Part shown: one piece after another, positions 936 to 21,254 of the stretch
Position numbering within the stretch: the first letter of the stretch is position 1
Layout: every line of letters starts with the position of its first letter
Source of the DNA: Escherichia coli
GTDB taxonomy: Bacteria > Pseudomonadota > Gammaproteobacteria > Enterobacterales > Enterobacteriaceae
NCBI RefSeq assembly: GCF_003790525.1
Contig: NZ_CP033635.1
Length of the DNA: 64,000 nucleotides
Direction: 5' to 3' (one strand)
The notes under the pieces: model-generated
Told to the model about the DNA's origin: nothing
Seen by the model: only the letters and a program-made list of their open reading frames with translations
Databases searched by the model: none
Translations under genes and position numbers: made by a program

Positions 936-1235
936 TCATTTATGCTTCGGCGACAACTGCTTCACAATCATCGCCGCAATCCCAATCCCGTGCTGCTGCG
1001 CCAGGGTGTTACACAACTCATCGTCATAAAACCCCTGCATCATGCGCACCGAATCGCTGTTAAACGGGTTATCTTTCGAATCAAACAACTCGTTGGTTTT
1101 ACGCATCTCTTTCAGCATGTTGCGTAAAAAAATCGCCTCAAACTGCTCCGCGGCCTGCTTAATATCATTGGCCTGAACCTTCGGCCCCATTAACGCATCG
1201 CTGCCATCAATCCCGCCGCTGGCGTTCACTTTCAT
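936..1235 (-). CDS. lfgJ: Rod-binding protein, FlgJ N-terminal-domain-like (no muramidase domain)
   Basis: 99 aa ORF; start overlaps lfgI stop (ATGA); resembles the FlgJ rod-binding domain. Confidence 0.75.
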   Translation of the reverse strand: MKVNASGGIDGSDALMGPKVQANDIKQAAEQFEAIFLRNMLKEMRKTNELFDSKDNPFNSDSVRMMQGFYDDELCNTLAQQHGIGIAAMIVKQLSPKHK

Positions 1236-2350
1236 CAGATCACCTCCAGGTCGGCATCCAGCGCGCCCGCCTCATGCAGCGCCTGTAAAATCGACATAAT
1301 GTCGTCCGGCGTCGCGCCCAAACTGTTCAACGCATTGACCAGCGTTTTCAGGCTGCTCGACTCCGGCAAACTCACCACGCCCGGGCGCGCATGATTCACC
1401 GCGATATTGCTCTGCGGCGTTACCGCCGTGCGCCCGCCTGCAAAGGCATTCGGCTGGCTGACGTTGCTGGTTTCGTTAATCGAGACGGTCAAACTGCCGT
1501 GCGACACCGCCGCCGCATGCAGCGCAACGCCATCGCCCATCACCACCGTGCCGGTACGCGAGTTAAACACCACGCGGGCGCGGATTTTCTCTGCCTGCAC
1601 CTGTACATCATCCAGTTGCGACATAAATGCCACCCGCGCGCCGGGGCTGGTGGGCGCGCGCACGCTGACGTTGGTGGAGCTCTGCGCAGTAGCAATGCCG
1701 CCAAACGAGGCATTAATCGCCGCCGCAATATTGTTGGCATCTTTAAACGACGGACGTTTCAGGTTGAGGGTGATAGTGTCGCCCATCTGAAAATCGCTGG
1801 GGATCTCGCGCTCTACCGTTGCGCCGTTAGGAATTAACCCGGCGGTTGGCGTATTAACCGTTACGCTCGAACCGCTGGCCCCGGTGGCATTCATCCCGCC
1901 CACCACCACGCTGCCCTGCGCCAGGGCATACACTTCGCCATCCGCGCCGTGCAACTGGGTCAGCAACAAAGTGCCGCCACGAATACTTTTGGCATCGCCA
2001 ATCGACGAAACGGTGACATCAATGGTCTGCCCGCGCGAGTACATCGGCGGCAGCGTGGCGCTCACCGCCACCGCGGCGACGTTTTTCACCTTCGGGTCGA
2101 TTTTATTCGGCAGTTGCACGCCAAACTGGCGCAGCATATTGGTGATGGTCTGGTTGGTGAATTTGACCTGGTTTTTATCGCCCGTGCCGTCGAGGCCGAC
2201 CACCAGGCTGTAGCCGACCAGTTGGTTTTCACGCACGCCCTGTACGTTGACCAGCGATTCCAGCGATTGCGCCAGCGCCACGCCAGGTAGCGCCAGGCTC
2301 ACGGTGATTACTGCGGCCTTTATCCAGTTTTGCATTGCACTCTCCGGCAT
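1235..2350 (-). CDS. lfgI: Flagellar P-ring protein FlgI
   Basis: 371 aa, N-terminal signal peptide, FlgI-like sequence throughout; start overlaps lfgH stop. Confidence 0.92.
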
Positions 2351-3015
2351 TAAATCGGGAACAGAGGATGGTTAAACAGCCGCGTCAACCAGCCTGCGGC
2401 GTTGGCGTCGCTTAACGCGCCGCGTCCGGCATAGGAGATGCGGGCATCGGCGATCCGCTGGGAGGAAACCGAGTTGTCGTTCTGGATGTCGTCGGCGCGC
2501 ACCAGGCCGCTTAAGCGGATGTACTCATCGCCCTGGTTGAGGGTCAGCCATTTTTCGCCGCGAATTTCCAGGATGCCGTTAGGCTGCACCGCATGGACGG
2601 AAACGGTGATCTCCCCGCGCAGGCTGTTCTGCTGCTGGGAAGTGGCACTGCCGTCAAAGTCGCGGTTGGCGTCGATAGAGCCGGAAAGCTTATCTTTGGT
2701 GTGTCCAAAAATCGTTGGCGCGCCGATATCGACGGTGTTGCTTTTGCCGAAGTTGGTTTTCGCCTGTTTGCTCGACTGGGTGGATTCTTCGAGGATCACC
2801 GTCAGGATATCGCCCACGCGGTAAGCCCGCCGGTCGGCAGTTAGCGACCAGTTGTAGCCGGTTTCAAACACGCCCCCGGCACGCCCGTCTGCCGGAGGCG
2901 GCGCTTCGGTGGTTGGTGGCGCAAAGTATGCGTCGTCTTTTTTGACCAGAATGGCCTGCGATTCACACCCGCTAAGCAGGGGAAGCAGCGCCACCAGCCA
3001 GAGATAATTTTTCAC
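2350..3015 (-). CDS. lfgH: Flagellar L-ring lipoprotein FlgH (likely GTG start at 3015; ORF track extends to 3090)
   Basis: FlgH-like; lipobox LLSGC after a hydrophobic signal segment. Confidence 0.88.
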
Positions 3016-3039
3016 GTTCTGCCTGTTTAAATACAGTGA

Positions 3040-3095
3040 GTTATGTGCTCTTGTAGGTCGGATAAGACGTGTCAGCGTCGCATCCGACATTTCGG
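3040..3095. repeat. REP element
   Basis: gtaggtcggataagacgtgtcagcgtcgcatccgac palindromic unit between lfgH and lfgG. Confidence 0.7.
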
Positions 3096-3097
3096 CC

Positions 3098-3883
3098 TTA
3101 CAGCGTCTGACTGATGTACTGCAACATATCGTCCGCAGCCGACACCATTTTGGCGTTCATCTCGTACGCCCGTTGCACCGTAATCATCGCCACCATCTCG
3201 TTGACGATATCCACGTTCGAGCCTTCGAGCGCGTTGTCCTGCAAGGTGCCAAGCCCATCTTCGCCCGGTACGCCTTCGGTCGGCTGACCGCTGGCAGCGG
3301 TTTCCAGATACAGGTTGTCGCCCTCGGCGGAAAGCCCCGCCGGGTTAGCGAAGTTCACCAGTGTCAGTTGCCCTAACTCGGTCACATCGCTGTCGCCGGG
3401 TAAGATCGCCGTCACCGTGCCGTCCTCACCAAACGCAACGTTAGTCGCCCCCGCCGGAACGTCGATTTCCGGTTGTAACGGCAAACCCTGCGAGTTAGTC
3501 AACACGCCGTCGGCGTTCACCTGCAAGTTGCCATCGCGGGTATAGGCGATATCGCCGTTAGCCTTTTGCACCTGCAAAAATCCCTGTCCCATAATGGCGA
3601 CATTCATGGCGTTGTCGGTGGTCTCAACGTTGCCTTCGGTGAAGGTTTTCTGGGTACCGACAATGCGTACGCCGCTCCCGAATTGCAGCCCGGTCGGCAT
3701 GATGTTGTTCTGGTCGAGCATCGCGCCCGGCGCTTCCTGGGTCTGGTAGAACAGATCCTGAAACATCACCCGATCGCGCTTGAAGCCGGTGGTGTTAACG
3801 TTGGCGATGTTGTTGGCAATCGCGCTCATTTCAGCATCCTGCGCCGAGAGGCCGGTTTTGCTGATCCATAGTGCTGCGTTCAT
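3098..3883 (-). CDS. lfgG: Flagellar distal rod protein FlgG
   Basis: 261 aa; conserved rod-protein N-terminus (ANNIANVNTTGFK) and C-terminus. Confidence 0.93.
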   Translation of the reverse strand: MNAALWISKTGLSAQDAEMSAIANNIANVNTTGFKRDRVMFQDLFYQTQEAPGAMLDQNNIMPTGLQFGSGVRIVGTQKTFTEGNVETTDNAMNVAIMGQGFLQVQKANGDIAYTRDGNLQVNADGVLTNSQGLPLQPEIDVPAGATNVAFGEDGTVTAILPGDSDVTELGQLTLVNFANPAGLSAEGDNLYLETAASGQPTEGVPGEDGLGTLQDNALEGSNVDIVNEMVAMITVQRAYEMNAKMVSAADDMLQYISQTL

Positions 3884-3904
3884 GGTGGTAAATTCCGTGT
3901 TATT

Positions 3905-3960
3905 TTTGGGCCGCAGTTGCCGGATGCGGCGTGAACGCCTTATCCGGCCTACGATGTGCG
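3905..3960. repeat. REP element
   Basis: gccggatgcggcgtgaacgccttatccggcctacg. Confidence 0.8.
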
Positions 3961-3961
3961 G

Positions 3962-4699
3962 TTACGAGCCGCGCAATAAGCGGTTGCCCGCGTCGCTGAT
4001 ATCTTCGGCTGTTTTCATCATCTTGATCTGCGCTTCAAACTGGCGGTTCATGGCGATGGACGACATCATTTCGCTCACCGCCGAGACGTTGCTGCCTTCG
4101 AGAAAACCGCCGCTGACTTTGATGTTTTCATCGCGCTGGGCCGGAATGCCGTCGCTAGTCACCAGCATCCCTTCAGGATTTTTCGCCAGGTTAGCGACCG
4201 GGATATCCACCAGCTTCAGGCGGTCGATATCCATCGTGGCGGTCACGTCGCCGTCATCAGGCGTCACCGACAGCGTGCCGTCGCTGCCAAACGAGGCAAT
4301 GGCGTTCGGCGGCAGAATGATCGGGCCGTTATCCCCCAGCACCAGATTGCCGTCGATGGTCAGTTGCCCCTGATCGTCCTGCTGAATGTTGCCGTTGCGG
4401 GTATAGACTTCGTTGCCGTTTTTATCCTGCACCGCAATGTAACCCGCGCCCTGAATCGCCACGTCCAGCGGGCGTTCGGTTTTCTCCGCCACACCCGTGC
4501 TGTCGTTCACGCCGCTGGCCCCTTCCTGCGCCATATAGCGAGTGTCGAAGCCGCCGCCTTTCACCTTGTCATTGGTCGCCATTGCCATATCGGCGCGAAA
4601 ACCGTTGGTGTTGACGTTCGCCAGGTTGTTGGCGCTAATCTGCTGCTCATACAACGTCTGAGAAGCCCCGCTCAGGGCGGTATAAATCAAGCGATCCAT
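3962..4699 (-). CDS. lfgF: Flagellar proximal rod protein FlgF
   Basis: 245 aa, rod protein family (NNLANVNTNGFR). Confidence 0.9.
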   Translation of the reverse strand: MDRLIYTALSGASQTLYEQQISANNLANVNTNGFRADMAMATNDKVKGGGFDTRYMAQEGASGVNDSTGVAEKTERPLDVAIQGAGYIAVQDKNGNEVYTRNGNIQQDDQGQLTIDGNLVLGDNGPIILPPNAIASFGSDGTLSVTPDDGDVTATMDIDRLKLVDIPVANLAKNPEGMLVTSDGIPAQRDENIKVSGGFLEGSNVSAVSEMMSSIAMNRQFEAQIKMMKTAEDISDAGNRLLRGS

Positions 4700-5901
4700 T
4701 ACATTGCCCGGAACAGCGCGTCATCGAGCTGCGTGCTGGTGGCGATCACTTTGGTGTTGGCCTGATAGTTACGCTGGGCGGTCATCAGGTTGACTAACTC
4801 GCTGGTGATATCGACGTTAGAGCTTTCGAGCACGCCCGACGACAGCGTGCCGCAGGAACCGGAGCCGGGAACGCCAATCAGCGGCGTGCCGGATTCCCCA
4901 GTTTGTACCCACGCGGTGCCGCTCACCGCTTCGAGTCCGTTTTCATTCGGGAAAGTCGCCAGCACCACCTGGCCCTGCAACATGCGCTCGCCGTTGCTGT
5001 AGGTAGCGTAAACTTTGCCATCGTCATCGACCTGCACACCGTTTTGCGTAGCGGAGGCGTAGCCGTTGGCGGCGTTGGTGGTGACCGAAAATTCAGAGCC
5101 GTATTGCGTACAGGTGGAGTAATCGACGGTTAAGTCGATGGGTGCGGCGGCGTCGGTCTGAAACTCAATGGTCTGCGGCGTGGTTGGCGAAGTCAGCTTC
5201 CCGGTGTTCGGGTCGAAGGTTAACGTCGTCGCCGGAACGCCGGTCTGCTGCTGACCGTCGAAGGTGTACTGCACTTCCCAGGTGTTGTCGCTGGTTTTGG
5301 TGAAGTACTGGCATACCGAGTGTTCGTTACCTAATGAGTCGTACACCGTGGTGGTGTAGCTGTCGGTATACGAGCTGCTGTTGGTCGCGTCGAACGGTAC
5401 GGTAGTGCGGTCGATAGCGTCGTCGCTGGCATCGAAGTTGGCGGTAAAGGTCAGGCTGCTGCTGGCCTGCGCCGGAATATTGCCAGTTTTGATCTGGATA
5501 TCGGTGACTGTACCGGTTTGCAGAGTGCCCGTGTCATCGACCGGATAGCCCTGCAAATAAGCGCCTGAGGCGTTGACGATATAGCCGTTTTTGTCGGTTT
5601 CAAACGATCCGGCGCGGGTATAAGAAATGTTGCCCGCGCTGTCGCAGGTAACAAAAAAACCGTCGTCGTTAATCGCCAGATCCAGCGCGTTACCGGTGGA
5701 TACCAGCGAACCGCCGCGCGAAATACTTTGCGCGGTGCCTGCCACGCTGACGCCCATCGCCTGACTTCCGGCATACATGGCTGAAAACTGGGTGGTCATC
5801 GACTTATAGCCTACCGTTCCGGCGTTGGCGATGTTGTTACTGATCCCGTCCAGCTGTTCGTTAACGGCATTCAGCCCCGTTGCGGCAATTTCATAACTCA
5901 T
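4699..5901 (-). CDS. lfgE: Flagellar hook protein FlgE
   Basis: 400 aa; hook-protein N- and C-terminal conserved segments. Confidence 0.92.
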   Translation of the reverse strand: MSYEIAATGLNAVNEQLDGISNNIANAGTVGYKSMTTQFSAMYAGSQAMGVSVAGTAQSISRGGSLVSTGNALDLAINDDGFFVTCDSAGNISYTRAGSFETDKNGYIVNASGAYLQGYPVDDTGTLQTGTVTDIQIKTGNIPAQASSSLTFTANFDASDDAIDRTTVPFDATNSSSYTDSYTTTVYDSLGNEHSVCQYFTKTSDNTWEVQYTFDGQQQTGVPATTLTFDPNTGKLTSPTTPQTIEFQTDAAAPIDLTVDYSTCTQYGSEFSVTTNAANGYASATQNGVQVDDDGKVYATYSNGERMLQGQVVLATFPNENGLEAVSGTAWVQTGESGTPLIGVPGSGSCGTLSSGVLESSNVDITSELVNLMTAQRNYQANTKVIATSTQLDDALFRAM

Positions 5902-5923
5902 TGTTTCTTCCTGTTAATTGTTC

Positions 5924-6637
5924 TTACGCCACATCACTGTCGGCATCGGGTACGCCAAACTGGCTAATCATGGTGAACGGCACTTCACCTACACCGGCAA
6001 CGTTAAGTACCGGGGAGCTGCCGTCGAGCGGGATGCGCACATCTTCCACTTCGCCGGAGACTTCAATCGGCACCTCTTCTTCCCCGGTGTTGGTCACCAC
6101 CGAGACGTCGTAATCGCCCGGCGGGATACCGTAATCCGCGGGATTCACCGAGAAATCCACCTGGCCTGGCCCGACGGACGAACTCCCTTCCGGGATCAGC
6201 GACACCGTATAGTCATCGCCTGCGGCATCGGTAAAGTGGAGATCGGCGGTGGTACAGGCGTCGTCAAGCGTGGCGCGACCGTTAATGGTCTGGTCACTCA
6301 CCTGCAAGGCGGTGGTCTGCACCATAATGTCGTCGCCCACCAGGTTGCCGAGCGCCATCACCTGAATGTTGCTCATCAACACCGCGTTGGTATTCGCCTG
6401 CACGCTCATCTCTTCCATCATCGCCACCTGCGCCATTGACGAAAGCTGGTCGATATATTCGGTGGCGTCAGTCGGGTCGGTCGGGTCCTGGTTTTGGATC
6501 TCAGCGACAAACAGCGTCAGGAAGGTATCGACGGGCGAGCTATCGCTGCTGCTTGTCGTGTCGCTGGCCGCCACATTATTGCTTTCCGGCGTGGCGGTCG
6601 GCTGCGGTGATTGCGCATTCAGCGCCAGGGTATTCAT
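5924..6637 (-). CDS. lfgD: Flagellar hook capping/assembly protein FlgD
   Basis: 237 aa; FlgD-like N-terminus followed by a Ser/Thr-rich region. Confidence 0.85.
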   Translation of the reverse strand: MNTLALNAQSPQPTATPESNNVAASDTTSSSDSSPVDTFLTLFVAEIQNQDPTDPTDATEYIDQLSSMAQVAMMEEMSVQANTNAVLMSNIQVMALGNLVGDDIMVQTTALQVSDQTINGRATLDDACTTADLHFTDAAGDDYTVSLIPEGSSSVGPGQVDFSVNPADYGIPPGDYDVSVVTNTGEEEVPIEVSGEVEDVRIPLDGSSPVLNVAGVGEVPFTMISQFGVPDADSDVA

Positions 6638-7068
6638 CAGGCTTCTCCCAGTTTCAGCAGGCTTTGCTGCATACTTTTCACGTTGTTGAGCACATCGACG
6701 TTAGTTTCAAAATCGCGCGAGGCCGACATCATGTCCGCCATCTGTTCCACCACGTTGACGTCGGGATACCAGACATCCCCGTTAGCATCGGCGAGCGGCG
6801 AATGTGGTTCATAGCGTTTCACCGCCCCGCCGGTTTGCAGCACGTCCTGCACCTGCACACTGGCACCGTCAATGGCATGACGATGTGTACCCGCCAGCAA
6901 ACTGTGGTGATACACCGCCGCAAACACCGGGCTGCGCGCTTTATATGCCTGCGCCTCGCTGCTGGCGGGCGCATTAGCATTCGCCAGGTTACTGGCGACG
7001 GTATTCAGACGTAGCGTTTGCGCCGTCATCGCCGAGCCGGAAATCTGATAGATATCAGTAAATGACAT
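6637..7068 (-). CDS. lfgC: Flagellar rod protein FlgC
   Basis: 143 aa; FlgC-like; reading frame intact. Confidence 0.92.
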   Translation of the reverse strand: MSFTDIYQISGSAMTAQTLRLNTVASNLANANAPASSEAQAYKARSPVFAAVYHHSLLAGTHRHAIDGASVQVQDVLQTGGAVKRYEPHSPLADANGDVWYPDVNVVEQMADMMSASRDFETNVDVLNNVKSMQQSLLKLGEA

Positions 7069-7070
7069 GC

Positions 7071-7406
7071 TTATTTCCCTTCAATGGCCTCTCTGATGCC
7101 GCTGATTTGCAGATTCAGAAAGGTCAGACTGCTTTGATAATCCATACTATTTTGTGAAAACCGCGCCTGCTCGCTGTTCAGCTCCACGGTGTTGCCATCT
7201 TCCGACGGCTGCATCGGCACGCGGTACTGGACATCCACCGCCGCGTTATTTGCCCGTTGCATCTCCCTGGCAAAATCAATATCTTTAGCCTTGAAATTTG
7301 GCGTATCGACGTTCGCCAGATTCGCAGTCAGTAGCTCGGTCCTCTCAAGACGTAACTTCACTGCCTGCGGATGCACTCCCAATGCCTGTTGAAAACTGAT
7401 CCCCAT
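7071..7406 (-). CDS. lfgB: Flagellar rod protein FlgB (start moved to ATG at 7406; ORF track start 7436 lies inside the predicted promoter)
   Basis: N-terminus from MGISFQQ... aligns with FlgB; LTANLANVDTPNFKAKDIDF motif. Confidence 0.85.
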   Translation of the reverse strand: MGISFQQALGVHPQAVKLRLERTELLTANLANVDTPNFKAKDIDFAREMQRANNAAVDVQYRVPMQPSEDGNTVELNSEQARFSQNSMDYQSSLTFLNLQISGIREAIEGK

Positions 7407-7443
7407 TTCTTGCGTCACTCCCGCTTCAATCCGCATACGCTAA

Positions 7444-7458
7444 GCAATCGCTGTGCCA
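7444..7458 (-). promoter_or_regulatory. Sigma-54 type promoter (-24 TGGCAC / -12 TTGC) for the lfgB-J operon
   Basis: Plus strand gcaatcgctgtgcca is the reverse complement of TGGCAC-AGCGA-TTGC, about 35-50 nt upstream of the lfgB start. Confidence 0.6.
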
Positions 7459-7487
7459 ATTTTTAAGTGACTGATGAGAAAGGGTTT

Positions 7488-8225
7488 ATGAGTTTTCAAT
7501 TTTGCAGGCGGAAGTTTTATTTCCTCCTGGCGCTGGCCTTACCGGGCTACGCCGCCGTCCATCCCGTGCAACATAGCGCGCGGGAACAAATCAACGCCCA
7601 GGTACTGAATACCGCGAGCCAAAAAATTGAATCGCTGGCGCAGCAGCGGCAATGGCATGACTATCGCTACACCTTTAAGGTCTATATTCCGTCGCAGATT
7701 GCGACCGCCGCGCCCTGTACAACGTCACCCGGCGTCACGCTGACGTCGCCTGCGGAAATCGCCCTTAACCGGATGAACTTCACCGTCAGTTGCCCGCAAA
7801 GCTGGCAGATGAACGTCGCGGTGCGCCCGGATGTTCTGGTACCGGTGGTGATGGCAAAGTCACTGGTTGCCCGCGATACGCCGCTCACGGCAAATGATGT
7901 GGAGCTGAAGCCCTACAACGTCAGCGCCCAGCGTCGCGATGTGTTGATGGAGCTCGATGACGCAATTGGTTTAAGCAGTAAGCACGCGTTGCAACCGGGC
8001 AGACCAATCACCAAAGAAGAGCTGGTTTCGCCAGTGCTGGTCGAACGCGATCAGCCGGTGATGATTGTTTACCAGAGCGCGGGGATCACCGCCTCGATGC
8101 CCGGCGTGGCGCTGAAAAATGGTCGCAAAGGGGAAATGGTGAAAGTACGTAACGTCAGCAGCCAGCGGGTCATTAGCGCGAGGGTGGCGGAAAGCGGCGT
8201 GGTGACAACGGTAAGCGCGGAGTAA
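7488..8225 (+). CDS. lfgA: Flagellar P-ring assembly chaperone FlgA (ATG at 7488; ORF track GTG at 7467)
   Basis: Signal peptide FYFLLALALPGYAA; FlgA-like C-terminal domain; divergent from lfgB. Confidence 0.85.
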   Translation: MSFQFCRRKFYFLLALALPGYAAVHPVQHSAREQINAQVLNTASQKIESLAQQRQWHDYRYTFKVYIPSQIATAAPCTTSPGVTLTSPAEIALNRMNFTVSCPQSWQMNVAVRPDVLVPVVMAKSLVARDTPLTANDVELKPYNVSAQRRDVLMELDDAIGLSSKHALQPGRPITKEELVSPVLVERDQPVMIVYQSAGITASMPGVALKNGRKGEMVKVRNVSSQRVISARVAESGVVTTVSAE

Positions 8226-8239
8226 TTTGCGCAGGCGAT

Positions 8240-8267
8240 TAAAGTTTTGCCGCCTGTTAACCGCTTT
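8240..8267 (+). promoter_or_regulatory. Possible sigma-28 class promoter (-35 TAAAGTTT, weak -10) upstream of lfgM
   Basis: Perfect TAAAGTTT at 8240-8247; downstream -10 region matches GCCGATAA only partially. Confidence 0.3.
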
Positions 8268-8304
8268 ACCGGAGTAACCCACCCAATACCGAGACGAGGT
8301 TACG

Positions 8305-8583
8305 ATGAAAATCACCCCGACGATGCCAGGCAATCGCCCGACAGCCACAATGGCAGGCTCCAGTCAGCCGCGCAAAAGCACGGCGACCACCGCCACGACG
8401 CTGAGCGCCGACGACATTACCCAGGCGGGATTGCAGTCTGCCCAGCAAACGCTGAACGACCAGCAAGAGAGCGATATCGACAGCGACAAAGTGGCGCAAA
8501 TGCAAGCGATGCTGGCGTCCGGCAGCCTGCAAGTGGACACCGAACAGTTAGCCAGCGACATGCTGAGTTTTTTCCAGAACTAA
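8305..8583 (+). CDS. lfgM: Anti-sigma-28 factor FlgM
   Basis: 92 aa; FlgM-like C-terminal region. Confidence 0.8.
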   Translation: MKITPTMPGNRPTATMAGSSQPRKSTATTATTLSADDITQAGLQSAQQTLNDQQESDIDSDKVAQMQAMLASGSLQVDTEQLASDMLSFFQN

Positions 8584-8595
8584 GAGGCCGATGAA

Positions 8596-9024
8596 GTGAG
8601 TATCCGGTTACAACAGGTGAAGGCGTTGTTGCAGGGCATTCGTGACGACGACGCACTGTACGATTCCCTGCGCGAACTTCTCCAGCGTCAGCGGATGTGC
8701 ATGATTCGCCGCGCCAGCGAAGATCTGCTGGCGGTAAACGACGAGATAACGCAGCACTATGAGCAGTTGCATGGGCATAGCCATCAGCGGCACAGCCTGC
8801 TGAAAATGCTTAATGTCAGTGTAAATCGTGACGGTCTGGCGCAGGTTTTTGCCTGGCTTCCGGCTGTGCAAAAAGCAGCAGCACAACAGTTGTGGCAACG
8901 CCTTGAGCAAAAAGCGGAACGCTGCAAAGCCTACAACGACAAAAACGGCGAGCTGTTGATTCGCCAGTATGAATTTATTCAGTCTTTTTTAGGCGGCGAA
9001 ACAGATTTTCTGTACCAGGAATAA
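8596..9024 (+). CDS. lfgN: Flagellar export chaperone FlgN (GTG start)
   Basis: 142 aa; FlgN-like; follows lfgM. Confidence 0.75.
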   Translation: MSIRLQQVKALLQGIRDDDALYDSLRELLQRQRMCMIRRASEDLLAVNDEITQHYEQLHGHSHQRHSLLKMLNVSVNRDGLAQVFAWLPAVQKAAAQQLWQRLEQKAERCKAYNDKNGELLIRQYEFIQSFLGGETDFLYQE

Positions 9025-9101
9025 CGACAATTCCTTCCCCCATCGCGGAAACGGATTTTCCGCCTGATTCTCAATCCCTTGTTTTTGATTACAAAAATTC
9101 C

Positions 9102-9117
9102 CGGCACGCTTATTGCA
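9102..9117 (+). promoter_or_regulatory. Sigma-54 promoter (cGGCACG-N4-TTGCA) driving the variable-region operon
   Basis: cggcacgcttattgca matches the -24/-12 consensus TGGCACG-N4-TTGCW at all positions but the first. Confidence 0.7.
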
Positions 9118-9151: not shown

Positions 9152-10081
9152 ATGAGTTTTATTGAACGTTACGAACCGGAATACGTGCGCAATTTTATGA
9201 CGCAATATCCCGATTCGCCTTTGTACGTCCGCAAGGTCTGGAAGAATGAGATTCGCCAGAGCCTGGCATTGACCGATATTGAAAGTTGCAAAGCGGTGCT
9301 CAACGATGCCAGGGCCTTTGATTTACAGCTCACCTACCGCCCTGTGGAAGACAATGCCGCCGAGCTATCCGCGCGCGATGCGATAGTAAACCAGGCCATT
9401 TTGAGCACCCTTACGCTCCCCGATTTAACCCCGGAGCTTTCCCTGTATGCCGTCGGGATTTTGCTCTCCCGCGCCAGTAAAATGCCGGGCAGAGACGGAG
9501 ATATTCTTGCCCGCTTGACGACGCTGCCACAGGCGCTGGGGGATCATGCACAAAAAGGCACGCTACAGGCACAGTTCGCCCAACTCCCACCCGTGCCACA
9601 ACTGGCGCGCCAACTGGTGACGCTGCTCGGGAGTTTTGCGTTTGACTGGTCGATTTTGCCGGAAAGCCCGCGCAAAGCCTCGCTACCGTTGCAGGTGACT
9701 TTGCTGACGTTGCATGACGCCAACAGCGAAGCTTTGTTGCAACAGCAGCTTAAGGTGCAGTGGCAAACCACCTGGCAACAGCATTTTGCCGCCGCGCCGT
9801 GGATGATGCGCAACTGGCTGATTTACCGCGTTTATCACGACGTGATTGGGCAGGCAGACGGAGCAGATTATTGCCCGCTGGTGTGTGATTTTTATCTCAT
9901 CCGCACGTTAATCAGTTTATGGACGCTGGATGGTTCACCGCTGCGGAAGGAGGATATTTTCGCCCTTTTTGCGGTGTTTGAACGCTGGCGAGAGAGTGAA
10001 AATGCTGCGGCGATTCGCCAGCAGCTCCAGTCGTTATGTGCGGCAGAGCCGCTGCTGTCAGCATTTTCGCTGCTGACGTGA
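9152..10081 (+). CDS. Hypothetical protein, Flag-2 variable region (ATG at 9152; ORF track TTG at 9113 overlaps the promoter)
   Basis: ~310 aa ORF downstream of the sigma-54 promoter; no family recognised. Confidence 0.6.
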   Translation: MSFIERYEPEYVRNFMTQYPDSPLYVRKVWKNEIRQSLALTDIESCKAVLNDARAFDLQLTYRPVEDNAAELSARDAIVNQAILSTLTLPDLTPELSLYAVGILLSRASKMPGRDGDILARLTTLPQALGDHAQKGTLQAQFAQLPPVPQLARQLVTLLGSFAFDWSILPESPRKASLPLQVTLLTLHDANSEALLQQQLKVQWQTTWQQHFAAAPWMMRNWLIYRVYHDVIGQADGADYCPLVCDFYLIRTLISLWTLDGSPLRKEDIFALFAVFERWRESENAAAIRQQLQSLCAAEPLLSAFSLLT

Positions 10082-10089
10082 GTCGCTCT

Positions 10090-10215
10090 GTGCGCGCTTT
10101 TCCCCTCCCCCTAACCCTCTCCCCAAAGGGGCGAGGGAACCGATCGAGCACGGTGTTAAAATCGGCGCTGGTTTTCTCCCTCTCCCTGTGGGAGAGGGTC
10201 GGGGTGAGGGCATCA
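10090..10215. repeat. GC-rich imperfect-palindrome repeat (boxC-like: ccctctcccc...gggagaggg)
   Basis: Related copies at 21405-21455 and 31840-31885. Confidence 0.5.
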
Positions 10216-10259
10216 GCACGCATATTCATCACATTCACCCATTAACTCACCCAAACACC

Positions 10260-12704
10260 ATGCCAACACCAACCATTATCAAAACACTCGCCACCCAGCG
10301 CGAAAAACCGTCCGTCAGCGTCATCACGCCAACCTGGAACCGCAGCGCATTCCTGCCGTACCTGCTTTATATGTACCGCTATCAGGACTACCCGGCAGAC
10401 CGCCGCGAACTCATCATCCTCGACGATTCCCCTCAAAGCCATCAACACATCATCGACCGCCTGACCAATGGCACACCGGAAGCCTTCAACATCCGCTACA
10501 TCCATCACCCGGAAAAACTGCCGCTGGGCAAAAAACGCAATATGCTCAACGAACTGGCGCGCGGCGAATACATCCTCTGCATGGACGATGACGACTACTA
10601 CCCGGCAGATAAAATCTCTTACACCATCGCTATGATGCAAAAAAACCGGGCGCTCATCTCCGGTTCCGACCAGATCCCCATCTGGTACAGCCACATCAAT
10701 CGCATCTTTCAAAGCCGCAGCTTCGGCCCGCATAACATCCTCAACGGCACCTTTTGCTATCACCGTAACTACCTGAAAAAGCACCGCTACGATGACGATT
10801 GCAATTTAGGCGAAGAGAAAAGTTTCACCGACAATTTCAGCGTTAACCCGCTACAACTGCCCGGCGAGCGCACGATTTTGTGTATCTCGCACAGCCACAA
10901 CACCTTTGATAAAGACTTTATTCTCGGGGCCAGCACGCCAGTAAACGCGACGCTTACGGATATCGTCCGCGATCCGCTGCTCCGCAATGCTTATCTGAGT
11001 CTGCATAACGCCACTCATCATCAGGCGATCCAGTATCAGGCGATCGATCAGATCGTTCTGCTGAATCTGGATAAACGCCCGGATCGCTTACAGCAGATCC
11101 GTGAAGAACTCACATTGCTGCATATTCCTCCTGAGAAGATCACCCGCCTTGCCGCCAGTGAAAATGAAAACGGTCAACGGGGCCGCCAGCAATCACACTT
11201 GCAGGCACTGCGTCTGGCGCAACAACGCGGCTGGCAAAACTACCTGCTGCTGGAAGATGACGCGGTTATTCTCAAACAGGAGAAACATATTCAGGTGCTG
11301 AACGCGCTGCTGGCGAGCCTGGCGAAAATTCCCTGGCAGGTGATGATCCTCGGCGGCGAAATTTCGCAGGGAACGATGCTAAAAAGTTTGCCTGGGCTGG
11401 TGCACGCGCGGGACTGCCGCAAAGTGTGCGCTTATCTGGTGAACCGCCGCTACTACCCGCAGCTGGCGCAGCAGATGAACAACGATGAGCATTCGCTGGA
11501 AGACGGCTGGCAGCCGCTGCTGCGCACCGACAAATGGCTGGCCTGTTACCCGAGCCTTTGTTATCAGCGACCGGGCTTTAGTGATATCGAGAAAAAAGCG
11601 ACTGATAACATTAACCACTACTTCAATAAGTTACCCGTAGCCACCAAGCCATCTACATTACCTATCGCCGATACCATCGGCTTTTTTATGGAAACCTCAT
11701 TCCACTACGCGCTCTACCGCCCAATCATCACCGCCCTGCAGGCGCAGGGGCAGAGCTGTACGCTGGTGATCAATGACCGCGTATTTAAACCATTTCTGGA
11801 TGAAATGCTGGCGACGCTAAAAAGCATCGACGATCCGCAGCTCAAAGGAATGCGCTTATCTGAAATGCAGGCACACGGTCAGCGAGTAAAATGCCTGGTC
11901 AGCCCCTATCACACGCCTGTGCTCAGTGGCCTTTCCCCCCTGAACATTCGCGCCATGTACGGCTTAGCCAAAGAAACGTGGAACCACGCCGACTGGAACC
12001 GTTTTTATCAGCGCATTTTGTGTTACAGCCACTACAGCCAGCGGGCGCTGGCACATTTCGGCAGCGCAATAGTGGTCGGCAACCCGCGCTTCGACGCCTG
12101 GCATAACGCCACGTTCGACCGCGCGTTGCCGGAAAATATCAAACTGGACGAGCGTAAACCCACCGTACTCTACGCCCCAACGTTTGGCGCATTAAGCTCC
12201 CTGCCCCACTGGGCAGAAAAATTGGGGCGCTTAAGCGATGATGTGAACCTGATTTGCAAACTGCACCACGGCACCTGCTCGCGCCCGGAAGAAGCTGCAT
12301 CGCTGGCCCTGGCTCGCAGGCATTTAAAACAGCGCACCGACTCCGCCCGTCACACGCTGGCGCTGCTGGCAAAGGCCGATTACGTGCTGACCGATAACAG
12401 CGGCTTTATTTTCGATGCTATTCACGTTGATAAGCGGGTGATCCTGCTCGACTTTCCGGGCATGGCAACGTTGCTCGACGGTGAGAAAAGTTACTCCACG
12501 CCCGAAAGCGCCGACCAGCGAATCCGCGAAATATTGCCGGTGGCTCATGATGTTGCGGAACTGCGTTATTTGTTGTCAGAGGCGTTTGACTGGGGTGCGG
12601 TGCAGGCGCGGCTTACGAAGATTCGTCATCACTATTGCGATGCGTTTATGGATGGCAAGGCGGGAGAACGGGCAGCGATGGTGATTGTGGAGGCACTAGG
12701 GTAA
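10260..12704 (+). CDS. Multidomain transferase: N-terminal GT2 glycosyltransferase, central GT25-like domain, C-terminal TagB/TagF-like CDP-glycerol glycerophosphotransferase domain
   Basis: N-terminal VSVITPTWNR...ILDDSP...MDDDDYY (GT-A/DxD); central LNLDKRPDRL (GT25-like); C-terminal VLYAPTFG...KLHHG...VLTDNSGFIFD (Glyphos_transf-like). ATG at 10260. Confidence 0.7.
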   Translation: MPTPTIIKTLATQREKPSVSVITPTWNRSAFLPYLLYMYRYQDYPADRRELIILDDSPQSHQHIIDRLTNGTPEAFNIRYIHHPEKLPLGKKRNMLNELARGEYILCMDDDDYYPADKISYTIAMMQKNRALISGSDQIPIWYSHINRIFQSRSFGPHNILNGTFCYHRNYLKKHRYDDDCNLGEEKSFTDNFSVNPLQLPGERTILCISHSHNTFDKDFILGASTPVNATLTDIVRDPLLRNAYLSLHNATHHQAIQYQAIDQIVLLNLDKRPDRLQQIREELTLLHIPPEKITRLAASENENGQRGRQQSHLQALRLAQQRGWQNYLLLEDDAVILKQEKHIQVLNALLASLAKIPWQVMILGGEISQGTMLKSLPGLVHARDCRKVCAYLVNRRYYPQLAQQMNNDEHSLEDGWQPLLRTDKWLACYPSLCYQRPGFSDIEKKATDNINHYFNKLPVATKPSTLPIADTIGFFMETSFHYALYRPIITALQAQGQSCTLVINDRVFKPFLDEMLATLKSIDDPQLKGMRLSEMQAHGQRVKCLVSPYHTPVLSGLSPLNIRAMYGLAKETWNHADWNRFYQRILCYSHYSQRALAHFGSAIVVGNPRFDAWHNATFDRALPENIKLDERKPTVLYAPTFGALSSLPHWAEKLGRLSDDVNLICKLHHGTCSRPEEAASLALARRHLKQRTDSARHTLALLAKADYVLTDNSGFIFDAIHVDKRVILLDFPGMATLLDGEKSYSTPESADQRIREILPVAHDVAELRYLLSEAFDWGAVQARLTKIRHHYCDAFMDGKAGERAAMVIVEALG

Positions 12705-12714
12705 AACGCGCAAG

Positions 12715-12830
12715 TGCCTGATGCGCTTCGCTTATCAGGCCTACGCGACCTTGCAATGTATTGAATTTGTAAGGATTTGTAGGCCGGTTAAGGCGTTTAC
12801 GCCGCATCCGGAACGAACAACGCACTTAAC
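12715..12830. repeat. REP/BIME elements
   Basis: gcctgatgcgcttcgcttatcaggcctac ... gccggttaaggcgtttacgccgcatccgg. Confidence 0.8.
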
Positions 12831-13029
12831 TACCCTCTGATTTCAAACTCATCGCTTTATGACTGGTGAATCGGTAAAAGTCGTAGATTGTGGGGGAGCG
12901 ATCTTTATGAATTCTGAAAAAACCTGAATCTTGCTAAACATATTGCTTATCATAAATATAGGTTACACACTATAACAATTATTGCGTAATTTAACATTTT
13001 GTTAAAATTGATAGGGCATAAACGATAAC

Positions 13030-13851
13030 ATGACTTATGATAAAAAAGTAACTTCCGGTACAACAAGCCAGAAACAAAACAACATTGTCACTCAAAAAAT
13101 ATCTCGCCCAAAGGAATTGTTTCTATTATTTTGGGTTGATGAGTCCGGTGATAGCCGACGTTCTATTTTTGAAGAAGCATGTCTGACGCGTTATTTCAAC
13201 ATCCTTTACTCCCCCGAGTATAAAAAAGAAACACAGATAGTTTACCATTTATCAATTAACACATTTAATCAAATCAAAGAAATATTAGAAATCTTTATAA
13301 ACAAGAATGGAGGTATAACCAAAGCAAAAGTTAAAGAAGTCAGTTTATTCTCACATGGGGGGCCAATTCATGGTCCTACAACCTCAGACTCTGTAAATAC
13401 ACCTTCCGTGCCTAAATACCCACAACAAATGGACATAATCGGAGGATGGGATTCAATTGATTTTAACTGGTCAAATAACGCTATGTTTGTTATGTATGGT
13501 TGTCGCACTAGTTATGCAAGTGATGATTCAGGACAAGGTTTTGCCAGTAAATTATCCCTATTAGATAATTTTAAGGACGTTAATGTCTGGGGACAAACAG
13601 AAAGTACTTATCCATCTTATTTCCCAGATATTAGGACAACTTCGATTATGAGGTCAATAAATATAGGTTGGTCTTTTTCACCAACATACATGGTTGCCAG
13701 TTCTGAAGGTCAAGGATGGGATGCCTTATTTCCGGATGATAAAAATCCACTAAAGTCTCTCCCTATGCAGTGTTATAATAATGGGAAATTGATTTTAACC
13801 TGCGATCAAAGCAGTTTTAATGATCACCGGAAGAATAAATCAAATGATTAG
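13030..13851 (+). CDS. Hypothetical protein, strongly AT-rich gene; possible alpha/beta-hydrolase-like fold (tentative)
   Basis: 273 aa; AT-rich codon usage unlike neighbours; motifs LFLLFWVDESGDS, VSLFSHGGP, MYGCRTSYASDDSG, C-terminal DH; own AT-rich upstream region. Confidence 0.55.
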   Translation: MTYDKKVTSGTTSQKQNNIVTQKISRPKELFLLFWVDESGDSRRSIFEEACLTRYFNILYSPEYKKETQIVYHLSINTFNQIKEILEIFINKNGGITKAKVKEVSLFSHGGPIHGPTTSDSVNTPSVPKYPQQMDIIGGWDSIDFNWSNNAMFVMYGCRTSYASDDSGQGFASKLSLLDNFKDVNVWGQTESTYPSYFPDIRTTSIMRSINIGWSFSPTYMVASSEGQGWDALFPDDKNPLKSLPMQCYNNGKLILTCDQSSFNDHRKNKSND

Positions 13852-14394: not shown

Positions 14395-14790
14395 TCATGC
14401 TTTCCCCCTAATCACCTCAATAATCCCCGTCGTCGACACCGACGGCGTGCGGGGGAAATACACTACCTCACAAATATACGCGAAGCTGTCAAACTTTCCT
14501 GCCCAGTCATCGCCCATCACTAAAATATCCGCACTGTACCCCCGCAGATACTCCGCTTTCTGCTCCAGCGACTCTTCCAGAAATACGCCATCCACGCACG
14601 CCAGCCCGGCGATGATCGCCATGCGGTCATCCTGAGGGTAAACCGGTGCCCTGCCCTTTTTGGCGATGTTCAGGGCATCGGACGATACGCCGACCAGCAG
14701 CCGTTCGCCCAGCGTGCGGGCGCGTTGTAAAAGGCGCAGATGACCGACATGAAACACATCGAAGGTGCCGAAGGTGATGACCGTTTTCAT
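14395..14790 (-). CDS. Cytidylyltransferase, glycerol-3-phosphate cytidylyltransferase (TagD)-like
   Basis: 131 aa; ITFGTFDVFHVGH (HxGH nucleotidyltransferase motif); start 2 nt after lfiJ stop (TAGCCATG). Confidence 0.8.
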   Translation of the reverse strand: MKTVITFGTFDVFHVGHLRLLQRARTLGERLLVGVSSDALNIAKKGRAPVYPQDDRMAIIAGLACVDGVFLEESLEQKAEYLRGYSADILVMGDDWAGKFDSFAYICEVVYFPRTPSVSTTGIIEVIRGKA

Positions 14791-20267: not shown

Positions 20268-21254
20268 TCAGGAGAAAACTTCGATACCGTGCTTGCGCAT
20301 GGAGGCCAGTCGATAGCGCAGTGCGCGCGGGGTAATGCCTAACAGGTCAGCGATTTTGCTGCGGTTGCCCTGATATTTACGCATCAGGTCGGCGATATAT
20401 TGATACTGCGCGCTTCGTCCGTGCTGGCCTAAATCGCCGGTTTCGGCAATGTGGACGGCGGGCTGAACAGGCCATTGCAGTTCACTGTGGTCAGCAATAT
20501 CGGTGTCCGGCAGGCCTAATGCATCCGGGTAAATTACGCCGTCGCGATTTAAAATCATTCCCCGCTGAATGGCGTTTTCCAGTTGGCGAACGTTACCGGG
20601 CCAACGGTAATTGAGCAGCGCACGGCGGGTGGATTCGGACAGGGTGATATTTTTCACCAGCACCGTGGAGTATTTTTTAATAAATGACTCTGCCAGCGGA
20701 ATAATATCGTTCAGACGTTCACGCAGCGGCGGCATGGTAATAGGAATCACCGCCAGACGATAATAGAGATCTTCACGAAAACGTCCGGCGGCAACTTCCT
20801 GCTCCAGGTTTTTATTGGTGCAGGCAATCAGGCGAAAATTGAGTTTGATTTGTCGGTTGCTGCCTAATCGCTCAACCTGTTGTTCCTGCAACACGCGTAA
20901 TATTTTGGCCTGTAGCGCCAGCGGCATTTCACCAATTTCATCGAGCAATAAGGAGCCGTTATTTGCCAGTTCCATTTTTCCTGGCACGCTGGCAATTGCG
21001 CCGGTAAATGCGCCTTTGTCGTAGCCAAATAACGTCGATTCCAGCATATTTTCCGGGATCGCCGCGCAGTTCACGCCGATATAGGGCGCATTATCATTTT
21101 CACCAAAGGCTACGGTGTGAATATATTTCGCCACGCACTCTTTCCCCGCGCCGGTTTCGCCCTGAATGAGCACCGGCACGTTAAAGGCGGCGACACGCTT
21201 TGCCAGAGTAAAAGCGTTAATGCTGGAAGCGGCAGTTGCAATAAGTTCAGACAT
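20268..21254 (-). CDS. lafK: Sigma-54-dependent transcriptional activator (LafK-type): AAA+ domain plus C-terminal HTH, no N-terminal regulatory domain
   Basis: 328 aa; GETGAGKE Walker A; sigma-54 interaction domain; C-terminal Fis-type HTH. Confidence 0.88.
   Translation of the reverse strand: MSELIATAASSINAFTLAKRVAAFNVPVLIQGETGAGKECVAKYIHTVAFGENDNAPYIGVNCAAIPENMLESTLFGYDKGAFTGAIASVPGKMELANNGSLLLDEIGEMPLALQAKILRVLQEQQVERLGSNRQIKLNFRLIACTNKNLEQEVAAGRFREDLYYRLAVIPITMPPLRERLNDIIPLAESFIKKYSTVLVKNITLSESTRRALLNYRWPGNVRQLENAIQRGMILNRDGVIYPDALGLPDTDIADHSELQWPVQPAVHIAETGDLGQHGRSAQYQYIADLMRKYQGNRSKIADLLGITPRALRYRLASMRKHGIEVFS

What the first reader, a model, noticed from the sequence alone, without database searches (positions are those of the whole stretch)
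7444..9117. Sigma-54 promoters at the lfgB operon and at the variable-region operon
Two matches to the -24/-12 consensus were found by eye: TGGCAC-N5-TTGC on the minus strand upstream of lfgB (7444-7458), and cGGCACG-N4-TTGCA upstream of the hypothetical gene and transferase (9102-9117). Both ORF-track starts overlap these motifs, supporting the relocated starts. This ties the modification genes to the LafK/RpoN regulon.
Basis: partly seen in the sequence, partly recalled or inferred. Interest (0 to 1): 0.5.

Follow-up and report, generated by a model that had tools for sequence, protein, structure and literature searches.

The report
Two sigma-54 promoters in Flag-2
Both motifs are real, strongly conserved sigma-54 promoters in the second (Flag-2) flagellar gene cluster of E. 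coli, and each sits behind a shared upstream dyad that probably binds the cluster's own activator LafK; this is an expected kind of regulation, mapped here in useful new detail.

Summary
The window is E. coli SMS-3-5, Flag-2 locus. Both motifs exist as described: TGGCACAGCGATTGC (7444-7458, minus) before lfgB, and CGGCACGCTTATTGCA (9102-9117, plus) before lafV, a FliB-like gene, followed by a GT2/TagF-like glycosyltransferase.

A matrix built from 135 ChIP-mapped E. coli sigma-54 sites ranks them first and third in 64 kb. They are kept in 38 (lfgB) and 19 (lafV) other loci while spacer and flanks diverge. Predicted starts (7432, 9128) agree with the RefSeq start codons 7406 and 9152.

New here: each promoter has a conserved dyad GGAA-N7-TTCC, centred 60 nt (lfgB) or 49 nt (lafV) upstream of the -24 GG. 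In the lafV type an IHF-like site lies between. A third identical module precedes lafB, outside the window. The lfgB dyad lies inside lfgA codons, yet is conserved at the DNA level, not the protein level.

Best reading: three enhancer-dependent promoters driven by LafK (328 aa, GAFTGA, HTH, no receiver domain). This places flagellin-modification genes in the middle class of the Flag-2 hierarchy. LafK dependence and dyad binding are inferred, not shown.

Verdict: a new member of a known kind, of moderate interest.

The parts
7443..7459 (-). Sigma-54 -24/-12 promoter of the lfgB operon (TTGGCACAGCGATTGCT). The predicted transcription start is about 7432.
   Evidence: Exact consensus match. Scores 15.4 bits on the ChIP-derived matrix. 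Conserved in 38 other loci at 14.5-20.7 bits, with the spacer and 5'UTR diverging.
7510..7524 (.). Dyad GGAAGTTTTATTTCC (GGAA-N7-TTCC), a candidate LafK enhancer. It is centred 60 nt from the -24 GG, about -85 from the predicted start, and lies inside lfgA codons 8-13.
   Evidence: Present in 37 of 37 enterobacterial loci at 60-63 nt. The codon phase is always the same, but the amino acids at the flanking codons vary (R/G/W and L/P/R) and Phe is always TTC. The constraint therefore acts on the DNA.
7464..7476 (-). Weak IHF-like element (CATCAGTCACTTA, 2 mismatches to WATCAANNNNTTR) just upstream of the -24 box.
   Evidence: The same position holds a site with at most 1 mismatch in 14 of 30 loci compared. 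It explains the conserved 'cTTAAAa' block. Inconclusive for E. coli itself.
936..7406 (-). lfgBCDEFGHIJ, the rod, hook and ring genes served by promoter 1. lfgB itself is 7071-7406.
   Evidence: RefSeq annotation and NCBIfam FlgB match. A 420-nt REP-filled gap separates lfgJ from lfgK.
9101..9117 (+). Sigma-54 -24/-12 promoter of lafV (CCGGCACGCTTATTGCA). The predicted transcription start is about 9128.
   Evidence: Scores 18.3 bits, the best site in the window. Conserved in 19 other loci at 14.9-18.3 bits, with six different spacer sequences.
9047..9061 (.). Dyad GGAAACGGATTTTCC (extended form GCGGAAACGGATTTTCCGC, 9045-9063), a candidate LafK enhancer. It is centred 49 nt from the -24 GG, about -74 from the predicted start, in non-coding DNA after lfgN.
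   Evidence: An exact dyad is present in 18 of 19 orthologous loci, at 49-50 or 58-60 nt, which is one helical turn apart. It is not terminator-like and its RNA fold is unremarkable (z = -0.01).
9069..9081 (+). IHF-like site (TCTCAATCCCTTG, 1 mismatch) midway between the dyad and the -24 box.
   Evidence: A site with at most 1 mismatch sits at the same position in 15 of 15 lafV promoters compared, and at least 5 of them are perfect. About 0.05 such sites are expected per region.
9152..10081 (+). lafV, annotated as a 'hypothetical protein' and a distant relative of the flagellin lysine-N-methylase FliB.
   Evidence: NCBIfam NF038110 gives E 5.7e-10 at 39 bits, below the cut-off of 85, and covers only profile positions 106-367 of 373. 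No Pfam hit. Named LafV in De Maayer 2020.
10260..12704 (+). Glycosyltransferase with an N-terminal GT2 domain and a C-terminal CDP-glycerol glycerophosphotransferase-like domain. It is probably co-transcribed with lafV.
   Evidence: Pfam PF00535 at 9e-18 and PF04464 at 4e-5. Always adjacent to lafV and in the same orientation in 22 loci. The lafV-GT gap is 46 nt in E. coli 1162C but 178 nt here, because of an inserted palindromic repeat.
20268..21254 (-). lafK, a sigma-54 activator of 328 aa with an AAA+ domain, a GAFTGA loop and a C-terminal HTH, and no N-terminal receiver domain.
   Evidence: NCBIfam matches to NifA, FlbD and PspF over the full length. The sequence shows GETGAGKE, GAFTGA and the HTH.

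Best explanation
Both motifs are functional sigma-54 (RpoN) promoters of the E. coli Flag-2 (lateral-type) flagellar locus. RNA polymerase carrying sigma-54 sits on the -24/-12 elements as a closed complex. LafK is encoded 11 kb away and consists only of an AAA+ domain and an HTH, so it is probably active whenever it is made. LafK would bind the conserved dyad GcGGAAr-N5-yTTCCgC centred about 74-85 bp upstream of the start. DNA bending, by IHF at the lafV and lafB promoters, would bring LafK to the polymerase. ATP hydrolysis would then open the promoter, so that transcription starts near 7432 (lfgBCDEFGHIJ) and near 9128 (lafV plus the glycosyltransferase). A third module of the same build drives lafB...lafS...lafTU, just outside the window. 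Flagellin-modification enzymes would thus be made together with the rod and hook genes and with the sigma-28 factor LafS, ahead of flagellin itself. Shown here: the motifs, their rank, their conservation, the shared dyad and its fixed spacing, and the DNA-level constraint on the dyad. Inferred: binding by sigma-54, LafK and IHF, the transcription start sites, and the extent of each operon.
For: Motifs and statistics.

Conservation: the lfgB promoter is present in 38 loci and the lafV promoter in 19. Mean information content is 1.8-2.0 bits in the -24/-12 blocks and 0.3-0.7 bits in the flanks. The background chance of a site of 14 bits or more in 130 nt on one strand is at most 0.007.

Dyad: exact GGAA-N7-TTCC occurs 107 times in 827 kb of loci against 12.6 expected. 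It lies 60-63 nt from the -24 GG at lfgB (37 of 37 loci) and 49-50 or 58-60 nt at lafV (18 of 19 loci). The same module, at 49-50 nt, precedes lafB in E. coli SMS-3-5, Phytobacter and Pantoea.

DNA-level constraint on the dyad inside lfgA.

IHF-like site in 15 of 15 lafV promoters and at lafB.

LafK has a Walker A motif, GAFTGA and an HTH.

The orthologous lateral flgB promoter of V. parahaemolyticus carries an RpoN site that is bound in EMSA (PMC9817140). LafK is described as the sigma-54 activator of class II lateral flagellar genes (PMC4481668).
Against: There are no transcript, ChIP or mutant data for any Flag-2 locus in the material I could reach. The LafK binding site is unknown in the literature I could search, so the dyad-LafK link rests on co-location and geometry alone.

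Dyads without a sigma-54 partner exist. One follows lfgN in L020 and L021, where lafV is missing. Another lies in the lfgM 5' leader of the Lelliottia/Enterobacter wuhouensis group.

In two Enterobacter loci (L016, L022) lafV has no promoter of its own and abuts lfgN, so the wiring is not universal.

In SMS-3-5 a palindromic repeat with a terminator-like hairpin lies between lafV and the glycosyltransferase. Read-through to the transferase is therefore uncertain in this strain.

In E. coli the IHF-like element at lfgB has two mismatches.
Confidence: 0.75

Rival explanations
1. The sigma-54 promoters are real, but the dyad is not the LafK site. It would instead bind another regulator, for example the LafZ-type regulator of the locus or a host factor. 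LafK, or another of the host's sigma-54 activators, would then act from elsewhere or from solution.
For: No LafK site has been described in the literature I could search. Orphan dyads occur without sigma-54 partners. One non-conserved dyad overlaps the -35-like box of a sigma-28-type promoter before lfgK.
Against: The dyad keeps a fixed, helically phased distance to three different sigma-54 promoters in many genera. Its half-site spacing of 11 bp is that of NtrC-family dimer sites (textbook knowledge, from memory). No second dyad-scoring site occurs in the 36 kb of non-Flag-2 DNA in the window.
Confidence: 0.13
2. The sites bind sigma-54 polymerase but are poised or inert. Many E. coli sigma-54 sites behave this way, or the Flag-2 system may be cryptic in this strain, so the sites would have no regulatory consequence.
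For: Bonocora et al. 2015 found many sigma-54 binding sites without detectable transcription. Flag-2 is described as non-functional in some E. coli and Yersinia strains.
Against: Both sites are intergenic, in sense orientation and 24-26 nt from start codons. Both are accompanied by enhancer-like and IHF-like elements and are conserved across genera whose neighbouring proteins have fallen to 40-55% identity. All Flag-2 genes in the window are annotated as intact.
Confidence: 0.08
3. The dyads are RNA-level or coding-level features (terminator or stabilising hairpins, or the signal-peptide codons of LfgA) that happen to lie near the promoters.
For: The lafV dyad can form a 7-bp hairpin after the lfgN stop codon. 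The lfgB dyad encodes the basic region of the LfgA signal peptide. Several other exact dyads inside lfgD, lfgE and lfgG are explained by conserved peptides.
Against: The hairpin has no T-run and is not called as a terminator, and the fold z-score is -0.01. In lfgA the amino acids vary while the dyad bases do not. At lafB the dyads lie downstream of a separate, obvious lafA terminator hairpin. The distance to the -24 box is fixed.
Confidence: 0.07
4. The motifs are chance matches to a short consensus.
For: With one mismatch allowed the simple pattern is not enriched in the window (11 found, 7.5 expected).
Against: The sites rank 1 and 3 of 128,000 positions on an empirical matrix. They are conserved in 38 and 19 loci.
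Confidence: 0.02

Closest known systems
LafK/sigma-54-dependent class II promoters of the lateral flagellar systems of Vibrio parahaemolyticus and Aeromonas hydrophila (flgB_L and fliD_L/lafB operons)
   Same: The gene neighbourhood is orthologous (lfgB, lafB). The -24/-12 promoter is of the same type. An RpoN site before lateral flgB is bound in EMSA in V. parahaemolyticus (PMC9817140). LafK is the dedicated activator (PMC4481668).
   Different: Here an extra promoter serves lafV and a glycosyltransferase. No sigma-54 site or dyad precedes lafK/lfiE or lfiM in this strain, so those operons look LafK-independent. That resembles the Aeromonas description more than the Vibrio one. E. coli LafK has no receiver domain. 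The two Vibrio loci fetched have neither the site nor the dyad.
Classical enhancer-dependent sigma-54 promoters with UAS plus IHF (for example nifH/NifA, glnHp2/NtrC, pspA/PspF; textbook knowledge, from memory)
   Same: The build is a dyad upstream site, then an IHF-like site, then the -24/-12 elements. The activator has a GAFTGA loop. Like PspF it consists only of an AAA+ domain and an HTH.
   Different: The dyad sequence GGAA-N7-TTCC does not match any activator site I know of. The enhancer is unusually close, centred at about -74 to -85. One copy is embedded in the coding sequence of the divergent gene lfgA.
Flag-2 variable region 1 (VR1) flagellin-modification genes (De Maayer et al. 2020, PMC6993521)
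   Same: The genes match those described there: LafV (FliB-like), the GT2-type transferase and the TagD cytidylyltransferase, located between lfiJ and lfgN.
   Different: That paper does not mention promoters at all (0 occurrences). Here lafV and GT have core-like GC content (55%) and conserved synteny, whereas the 33%-GC genes at 13030-14383 are the real strain-specific cargo.

Membership tests
Sigma-54 (RpoN) dependent promoter | GG at -24/-25 and GC at -12/-13 separated by exactly 10 nt, within TGGCAC-N5-TTGCW | tested here: met
   Both sites meet this. They score 15.4 and 18.3 bits on a matrix of 135 ChIP-mapped E. coli sites, whose median is 14.5 bits.
Sigma-54 (RpoN) dependent promoter | Position and orientation: upstream of a gene on the sense strand, with a short 5'UTR | tested here: met
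   The predicted starts 7432 and 9128 lie 26 and 24 nt before ATG 7406 and ATG 9152. Confirmed E. coli promoters lie 18-93 nt from their genes.
Sigma-54 (RpoN) dependent promoter | Conservation of the -24/-12 blocks, but not the spacer, in orthologous regions | tested here: met
   Found in 38 (lfgB) and 19 (lafV) loci. Core information content is 1.8-2.0 bits against 0.3-1.1 bits in the spacer and flanks.
Sigma-54 (RpoN) dependent promoter | A cognate AAA+ activator with a GAFTGA loop is available | tested here: met
   LafK at 20268-21254 has GETGAGKE, GAFTGA and an HTH.
Sigma-54 (RpoN) dependent promoter | Physical binding of sigma-54 holoenzyme, transcription start 11-13 nt downstream of the -12 GC, and loss of expression in an rpoN mutant | not testable with these tools
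   No ChIP, TSS or mutant data for a Flag-2-carrying strain were found.
LafK regulon (class II lateral flagellar genes) | Dependence on LafK, shown by LafK binding an upstream activating sequence | tested here: inconclusive
   A shared dyad lies at a fixed distance from three promoters. No known LafK site exists to compare it with, and binding cannot be tested here.
IHF-assisted enhancer-dependent promoter | An IHF consensus (WATCAANNNNTTR) between the enhancer and the -24 box | tested here: met
   For lafV, 15 of 15 promoters have a site with at most 1 mismatch at the same position, against 0.05 expected. The lafB promoter has a perfect site. For lfgB the result is inconclusive: 14 of 30 loci have such a site, and E. 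coli has 2 mismatches.
FliB flagellin lysine-N-methylase (NCBIfam NF038110), as the identity of lafV | A whole-protein score above the curated cut-off (85 bits) with coverage of the full profile | tested here: not met
   The score is 39.3 bits at E 5.7e-10, and only profile positions 106-367 of 373 are matched. There is no Pfam hit. LafV is therefore a distant relative, and its activity is unproven.

The most novel reading that the evidence does not exclude
The dyad GcGGAAr-N5-yTTCCgC is the hitherto undescribed LafK enhancer of enterobacterial Flag-2 systems. If so, it defines a minimal LafK regulon of exactly three promoters: lfgB, lafV-GT and lafB...lafS. One copy would be written into the signal-peptide codons of the divergent gene lfgA, making that stretch dual-use sequence conserved in 37 species. 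LafK bound there could also hinder lfgAMN transcription, which includes the anti-sigma-28 gene. The export-gate and lafK operons would lie outside the regulon, giving a hierarchy different from the Vibrio model.
Probability: 0.5. Interest if true: 0.5.

Novelty: new member of a known kind. Interest (0 to 1): 0.38.

Why it matters
Flag-2 is present in about a quarter of complete E. coli genomes (1277 of 5426) and in many other Enterobacterales, yet its regulation is essentially unstudied.

The three promoter modules give precise, testable targets. These are two predicted transcription starts, three predicted activator sites and the IHF sites.

The analysis also makes a clear prediction: flagellin-modification enzymes are made in the middle class of the hierarchy, before flagellin.

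It offers a way to switch the system on experimentally, by expressing LafK, which has no receiver domain.

The enhancer embedded in lfgA is a neat example of coding sequence constrained by a regulatory site.

Tried and rejected
1. The primary papers could not be read. Ren et al. 2005 (Flag-2), Stewart & McCarter 2003 and Wilhelms et al. 2013 are not held. I therefore cannot say whether the lfgB site was already printed there.

2. I first used a sigma-54 matrix written from memory. I later replaced it with one built from published ChIP-seq sites. The ranks changed slightly but the conclusion did not.

3. I looked for a sigma-54 site or dyad in the lafK/lfiM divergent region (21255-21626) and before the glycosyltransferase (10082-10259). 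Neither region has one.

4. The terminator or RNA-hairpin reading of the lafV dyad was tested and not supported. No Rfam family matches the region.

5. Other exact dyads inside lfgD, lfgE and lfgG proved to be by-products of conserved peptides such as GExxVP, GSxFS and PEIDVP. They have no sigma-54 partner.

6. The two Vibrio loci, Ferrimonas and a truncated MAG locus carry neither element, so they add nothing.

7. Literature searches for a LafK binding site, for Flag-2 together with rpoN, and for lafV returned nothing relevant. The Y. pseudotuberculosis RpoN ChIP-seq paper does not mention lateral or Flag-2 genes in its main text.
Full report
**Identity of the window.**
The 6.1 kb around the finding is 100% identical to the E. 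coli SMS-3-5 chromosome (NC_010498.1), and 1277 of 5426 complete E. coli genomes hold most of it. RefSeq annotation and family searches show the Flag-2, lateral-type, flagellar locus.

- On the minus strand: lfgB-lfgJ (936-7406) and tagD-lfiJ...lfiE-lafK (14395-21254).
- On the plus strand: lfgA (7488-8225), lfgM, lfgN (to 9024), a 'hypothetical' gene (9152-10081), a glycosyltransferase (10260-12704), two further hypothetical genes (13030-14383), and lfiM...lfhA (21627-27856).

**The observation.**
The exact pattern TGGCAC-N5-TTGC occurs twice in 64 kb against 0.28 expected. With one mismatch allowed the count (11 against 7.5 expected) is unremarkable, so pattern counting alone does not carry the second site.

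I therefore built a position matrix from the 135 sigma-54 sites mapped by ChIP-seq in E. coli K-12 (Bonocora et al. 2015, PMC4591121). On this matrix the lafV site (9101-9117) scores 18.3 bits. That is the best of about 128,000 positions and at or above 99% of the real sites. The lfgB site (7443-7459, minus strand) scores 15.4 bits, third best and at or above 73% of real sites. Shuffled sequence yields about one hit of 14 bits or more per 64 kb.

Using that paper's rule (start 19 nt downstream of the motif centre), the predicted starts are 7432 and 9128. They lie 26 and 24 nt before ATG 7406 and ATG 9152. RefSeq already uses those start codons, and orthologues align to them from residue 1. The longest-ORF starts are thus excluded if the promoters are real. 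ATG 7436 lies upstream of the predicted transcription start, and TTG 9113 lies inside the promoter.

**Conservation.**
One scan of species-representative genomes with LfgC returned 42 loci, with LfgC identity from 41% to 100%.

- *lfgB promoter.* A sigma-54 site precedes lfgB in all 37 enterobacterial loci and in Bowmanella, at 14.5-20.7 bits.
- *lafV promoter.* A sigma-54 site precedes the orthologue of the 'hypothetical' gene in all 19 loci where that gene (39-92% identity) follows lfgN across a gap of at least 100 nt, at 14.9-18.3 bits. These loci are Escherichia, Pseudocitrobacter, Citrobacter, Phytobacter, Leminorella and others.
- *Pattern of conservation.* In motif-anchored alignments the TGGCA and TTGC blocks carry 1.8-2.0 bits per column, while the spacer, 5'UTR and flanks carry 0.3-1.1 bits.
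- *Background.* The chance of a site of 14 bits or more in a 130-nt gap on one strand is at most 0.007.
- *Other E. coli lineages.* Both regions are also intact in two lineages about 93% identical to SMS-3-5.
- *Exceptions.* In two Enterobacter loci lafV abuts lfgN (about 27 nt) and has no promoter of its own. In Pseudescherichia and one MAG lafV is absent.

**A shared upstream element.**
Extending the alignments upstream revealed the dyad GGAA-N7-TTCC, with extended form GcGGAAr-N5-yTTCCgC, before both promoters. In the window it lies at 7510-7524 and 9047-9061. These two are the only high-scoring copies in 64 kb.

- *Abundance.* In the 827 kb of related loci the exact dyad occurs 107 times against 12.6 expected.
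- *Spacing.* Its centre lies 60-63 nt from the -24 GG of the lfgB promoter in 37 of 37 loci. At the lafV promoter it lies 49-50 nt away (Escherichia, Citrobacter, Phytobacter) or 58-60 nt away (four other loci), which is one helical turn apart.
- *DNA-level constraint.* The lfgB copy lies inside lfgA, at codons 8-13, always in the same phase (NGG AAR nnn nnn TTC Cnn). The first codon encodes R, G or W and the last encodes L, P or R. Phe is always TTC. The conserved entity is therefore the DNA, not the peptide.
- *Not a terminator.* The lafV copy is non-coding, has no T-run, and folds no better than shuffled sequence.
- *A third module.* Outside the window, in SMS-3-5 cluster 3, a third module precedes lafB (fliD). 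It has the dyad CCGGAAACACCATTTCCGC, 49 nt of spacing, and then TGGCACGCCTTTTGCC. The same pair precedes lafB in Phytobacter and Pantoea.
- *IHF-like site.* Between dyad and promoter, 15 of 15 lafV promoters and the lafB promoter have a match with at most 1 mismatch to the IHF consensus WATCAANNNNTTR at the same position, against 0.05 expected per region. At lfgB a weaker element sits closer to the -24 box: 14 of 30 loci have at most 1 mismatch, and E. coli has 2.

**The activator and the downstream genes.**
LafK (20268-21254) is 328 aa with a Walker A motif, a GAFTGA loop and a C-terminal HTH, and no receiver domain. Its architecture is that of PspF.

The 'hypothetical' gene is the LafV of the Flag-2 literature. 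It matches the FliB flagellin lysine-N-methylase model only weakly: 39 bits against a cut-off of 85, covering profile positions 106-367 of 373. It has no Pfam hit, so its activity is unproven.

The transferase combines a GT2 domain with a TagF-like CDP-glycerol glycerophosphotransferase domain. A TagD-like cytidylyltransferase closes the lfiJ operon.

lafV and GT are adjacent and co-oriented in 22 loci and have core-like GC content of 55%. In SMS-3-5, however, a palindromic repeat with a terminator-like hairpin separates them. In strain 1162C the gap is only 46 nt.

**Mechanism proposed.**
Sigma-54 holoenzyme would form a closed complex at each -24/-12 site. LafK bound to the dyad, at about -74 or -85, would be brought into contact by bending, with IHF at lafV and lafB. 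It would then open the promoter by ATP hydrolysis.

The three targets would be rod and hook genes (lfgB...), modification genes (lafV-GT), and the cap, chaperone, LafS and stator operon (lafB...). Neither a sigma-54 site nor a dyad precedes lafK/lfiE or lfiM in this strain. Those operons would therefore be upstream of, or independent from, LafK.

All binding events and transcription starts are inferred.

**Comparison with what is known.**
In V. parahaemolyticus LafK is the sigma-54 activator of class II lateral genes. The lateral flgB promoter there carries an RpoN site that is bound in EMSA.

The lfgB promoter here is thus an orthologue of a known promoter, and the lafB one is expected. The promoter before lafV-GT and the dyad are not mentioned in any paper I could search. 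The founding Flag-2 paper could not be read.

**Verdict.**
This is a new member of a well-known kind of regulatory element. Added value comes from a candidate LafK enhancer and a three-promoter regulon. Interest is moderate.

Noticed in passing
window 8239-8268 (+) and 547-575 (-): Sigma-28 (LafS)-type promoter candidates precede lfgM (TTAAAGTTT-N12-ACCGCTTTA) and lfgK (TTAAGATT-N12-GCCGCTTTT). The lfgM one is conserved as TTAAGTTT-N12-GyCGCTTTA in Lelliottia, Enterobacter, Pantoea and Mangrovibacter loci. The -10 part differs from the E. coli FliA consensus GCCGATAA (from memory).
   Followed up: partly
window 18547-18563 (-), 20207-20223 (-), 7652-7668 (+), 38581-38597 (-): Further sigma-54-like sites lie inside genes in sense orientation: in lfiF (15.6 bits), at the start of lfiE (14.4), in lfgA (13.4) and in yafS (14.1). 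The lfgA site is kept in Escherichia, Pseudocitrobacter, some Citrobacter and Phytobacter. None has a dyad partner, and yafS is not in the K-12 high-stringency ChIP list.
   Followed up: partly
window 12830-14383: Two hypothetical genes and their upstream region have 33% GC against 55-58% for the rest of Flag-2. They are absent from E. coli O111:H8, where the transferase is followed directly by tagD, and from all 42 related loci. This is the real strain-specific cargo of VR1, and no family match was found for it.
   Followed up: partly
window 600-935, 12710-12815, 10100-10215, 21405-21450: Three tandem REP/BIME-type repeats fill the lfgJ-lfgK gap, and one follows the transferase gene; about 10 places per E. 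coli genome match it. GC-rich palindromic repeats (CCCTCTCCC...GGGAGAGGG, boxC-like from memory) lie between lafV and GT and in the lafK-lfiM gap. The lafV-GT copy is polymorphic among E. coli strains.
   Followed up: partly
window 21255-21626: The divergent lafK / lfiM control region (372 nt, partly AT-rich) has no sigma-54 site and no dyad. The top of the Flag-2 hierarchy is therefore probably read by another sigma factor.
   Followed up: no
window 7407-7487: Only 81 nt separate lfgB and lfgA, and no sigma-70-type promoter for lfgA is detectable there. The candidate LafK dyad sits 22 nt inside lfgA, so bound LafK might obstruct lfgAMN transcription. This is unexplained.
   Followed up: no
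L020 7969, L021 7971; L023-L026, L029-L032, L039, L040 at about 8683: Some dyads have no sigma-54 partner. One follows lfgN where lafV is missing (Pseudescherichia vulneris and a MAG). Another lies in the lfgM leader, about 20 nt downstream of the sigma-28-type promoter, in the Lelliottia/Enterobacter wuhouensis/Pantoea/Mangrovibacter group.
   Followed up: partly
L023-L026, L029, L033, L039, L040: In a second group of genera, distant GT (about 43% identity) and LafV-like (25-28%) genes sit directly after lfiJ in the opposite order and orientation. They have no sigma-54 site, so they appear to ride on the lafK-lfiE...J operon instead.
   Followed up: no
window 566-580: An exact dyad, GGAACTTAAGATTCC, overlaps the -35-like box of the lfgK sigma-28-type promoter. 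It lies next to a degenerate sigma-54-like motif (TGGCACCCGGTTTAC, 581-595, with -12 GC replaced by AC). Neither is conserved in other loci.
   Followed up: partly
L002, L015: Two record titles look odd. 'Pseudocitrobacter vendiensis' carries Flag-2 genes 95-100% identical in protein to E. coli SMS-3-5. A contig labelled 'Chryseobacterium sp. 18061' carries a typical enterobacterial Flag-2 locus. Possible causes are recent transfer, mislabelling or contamination.
   Followed up: no
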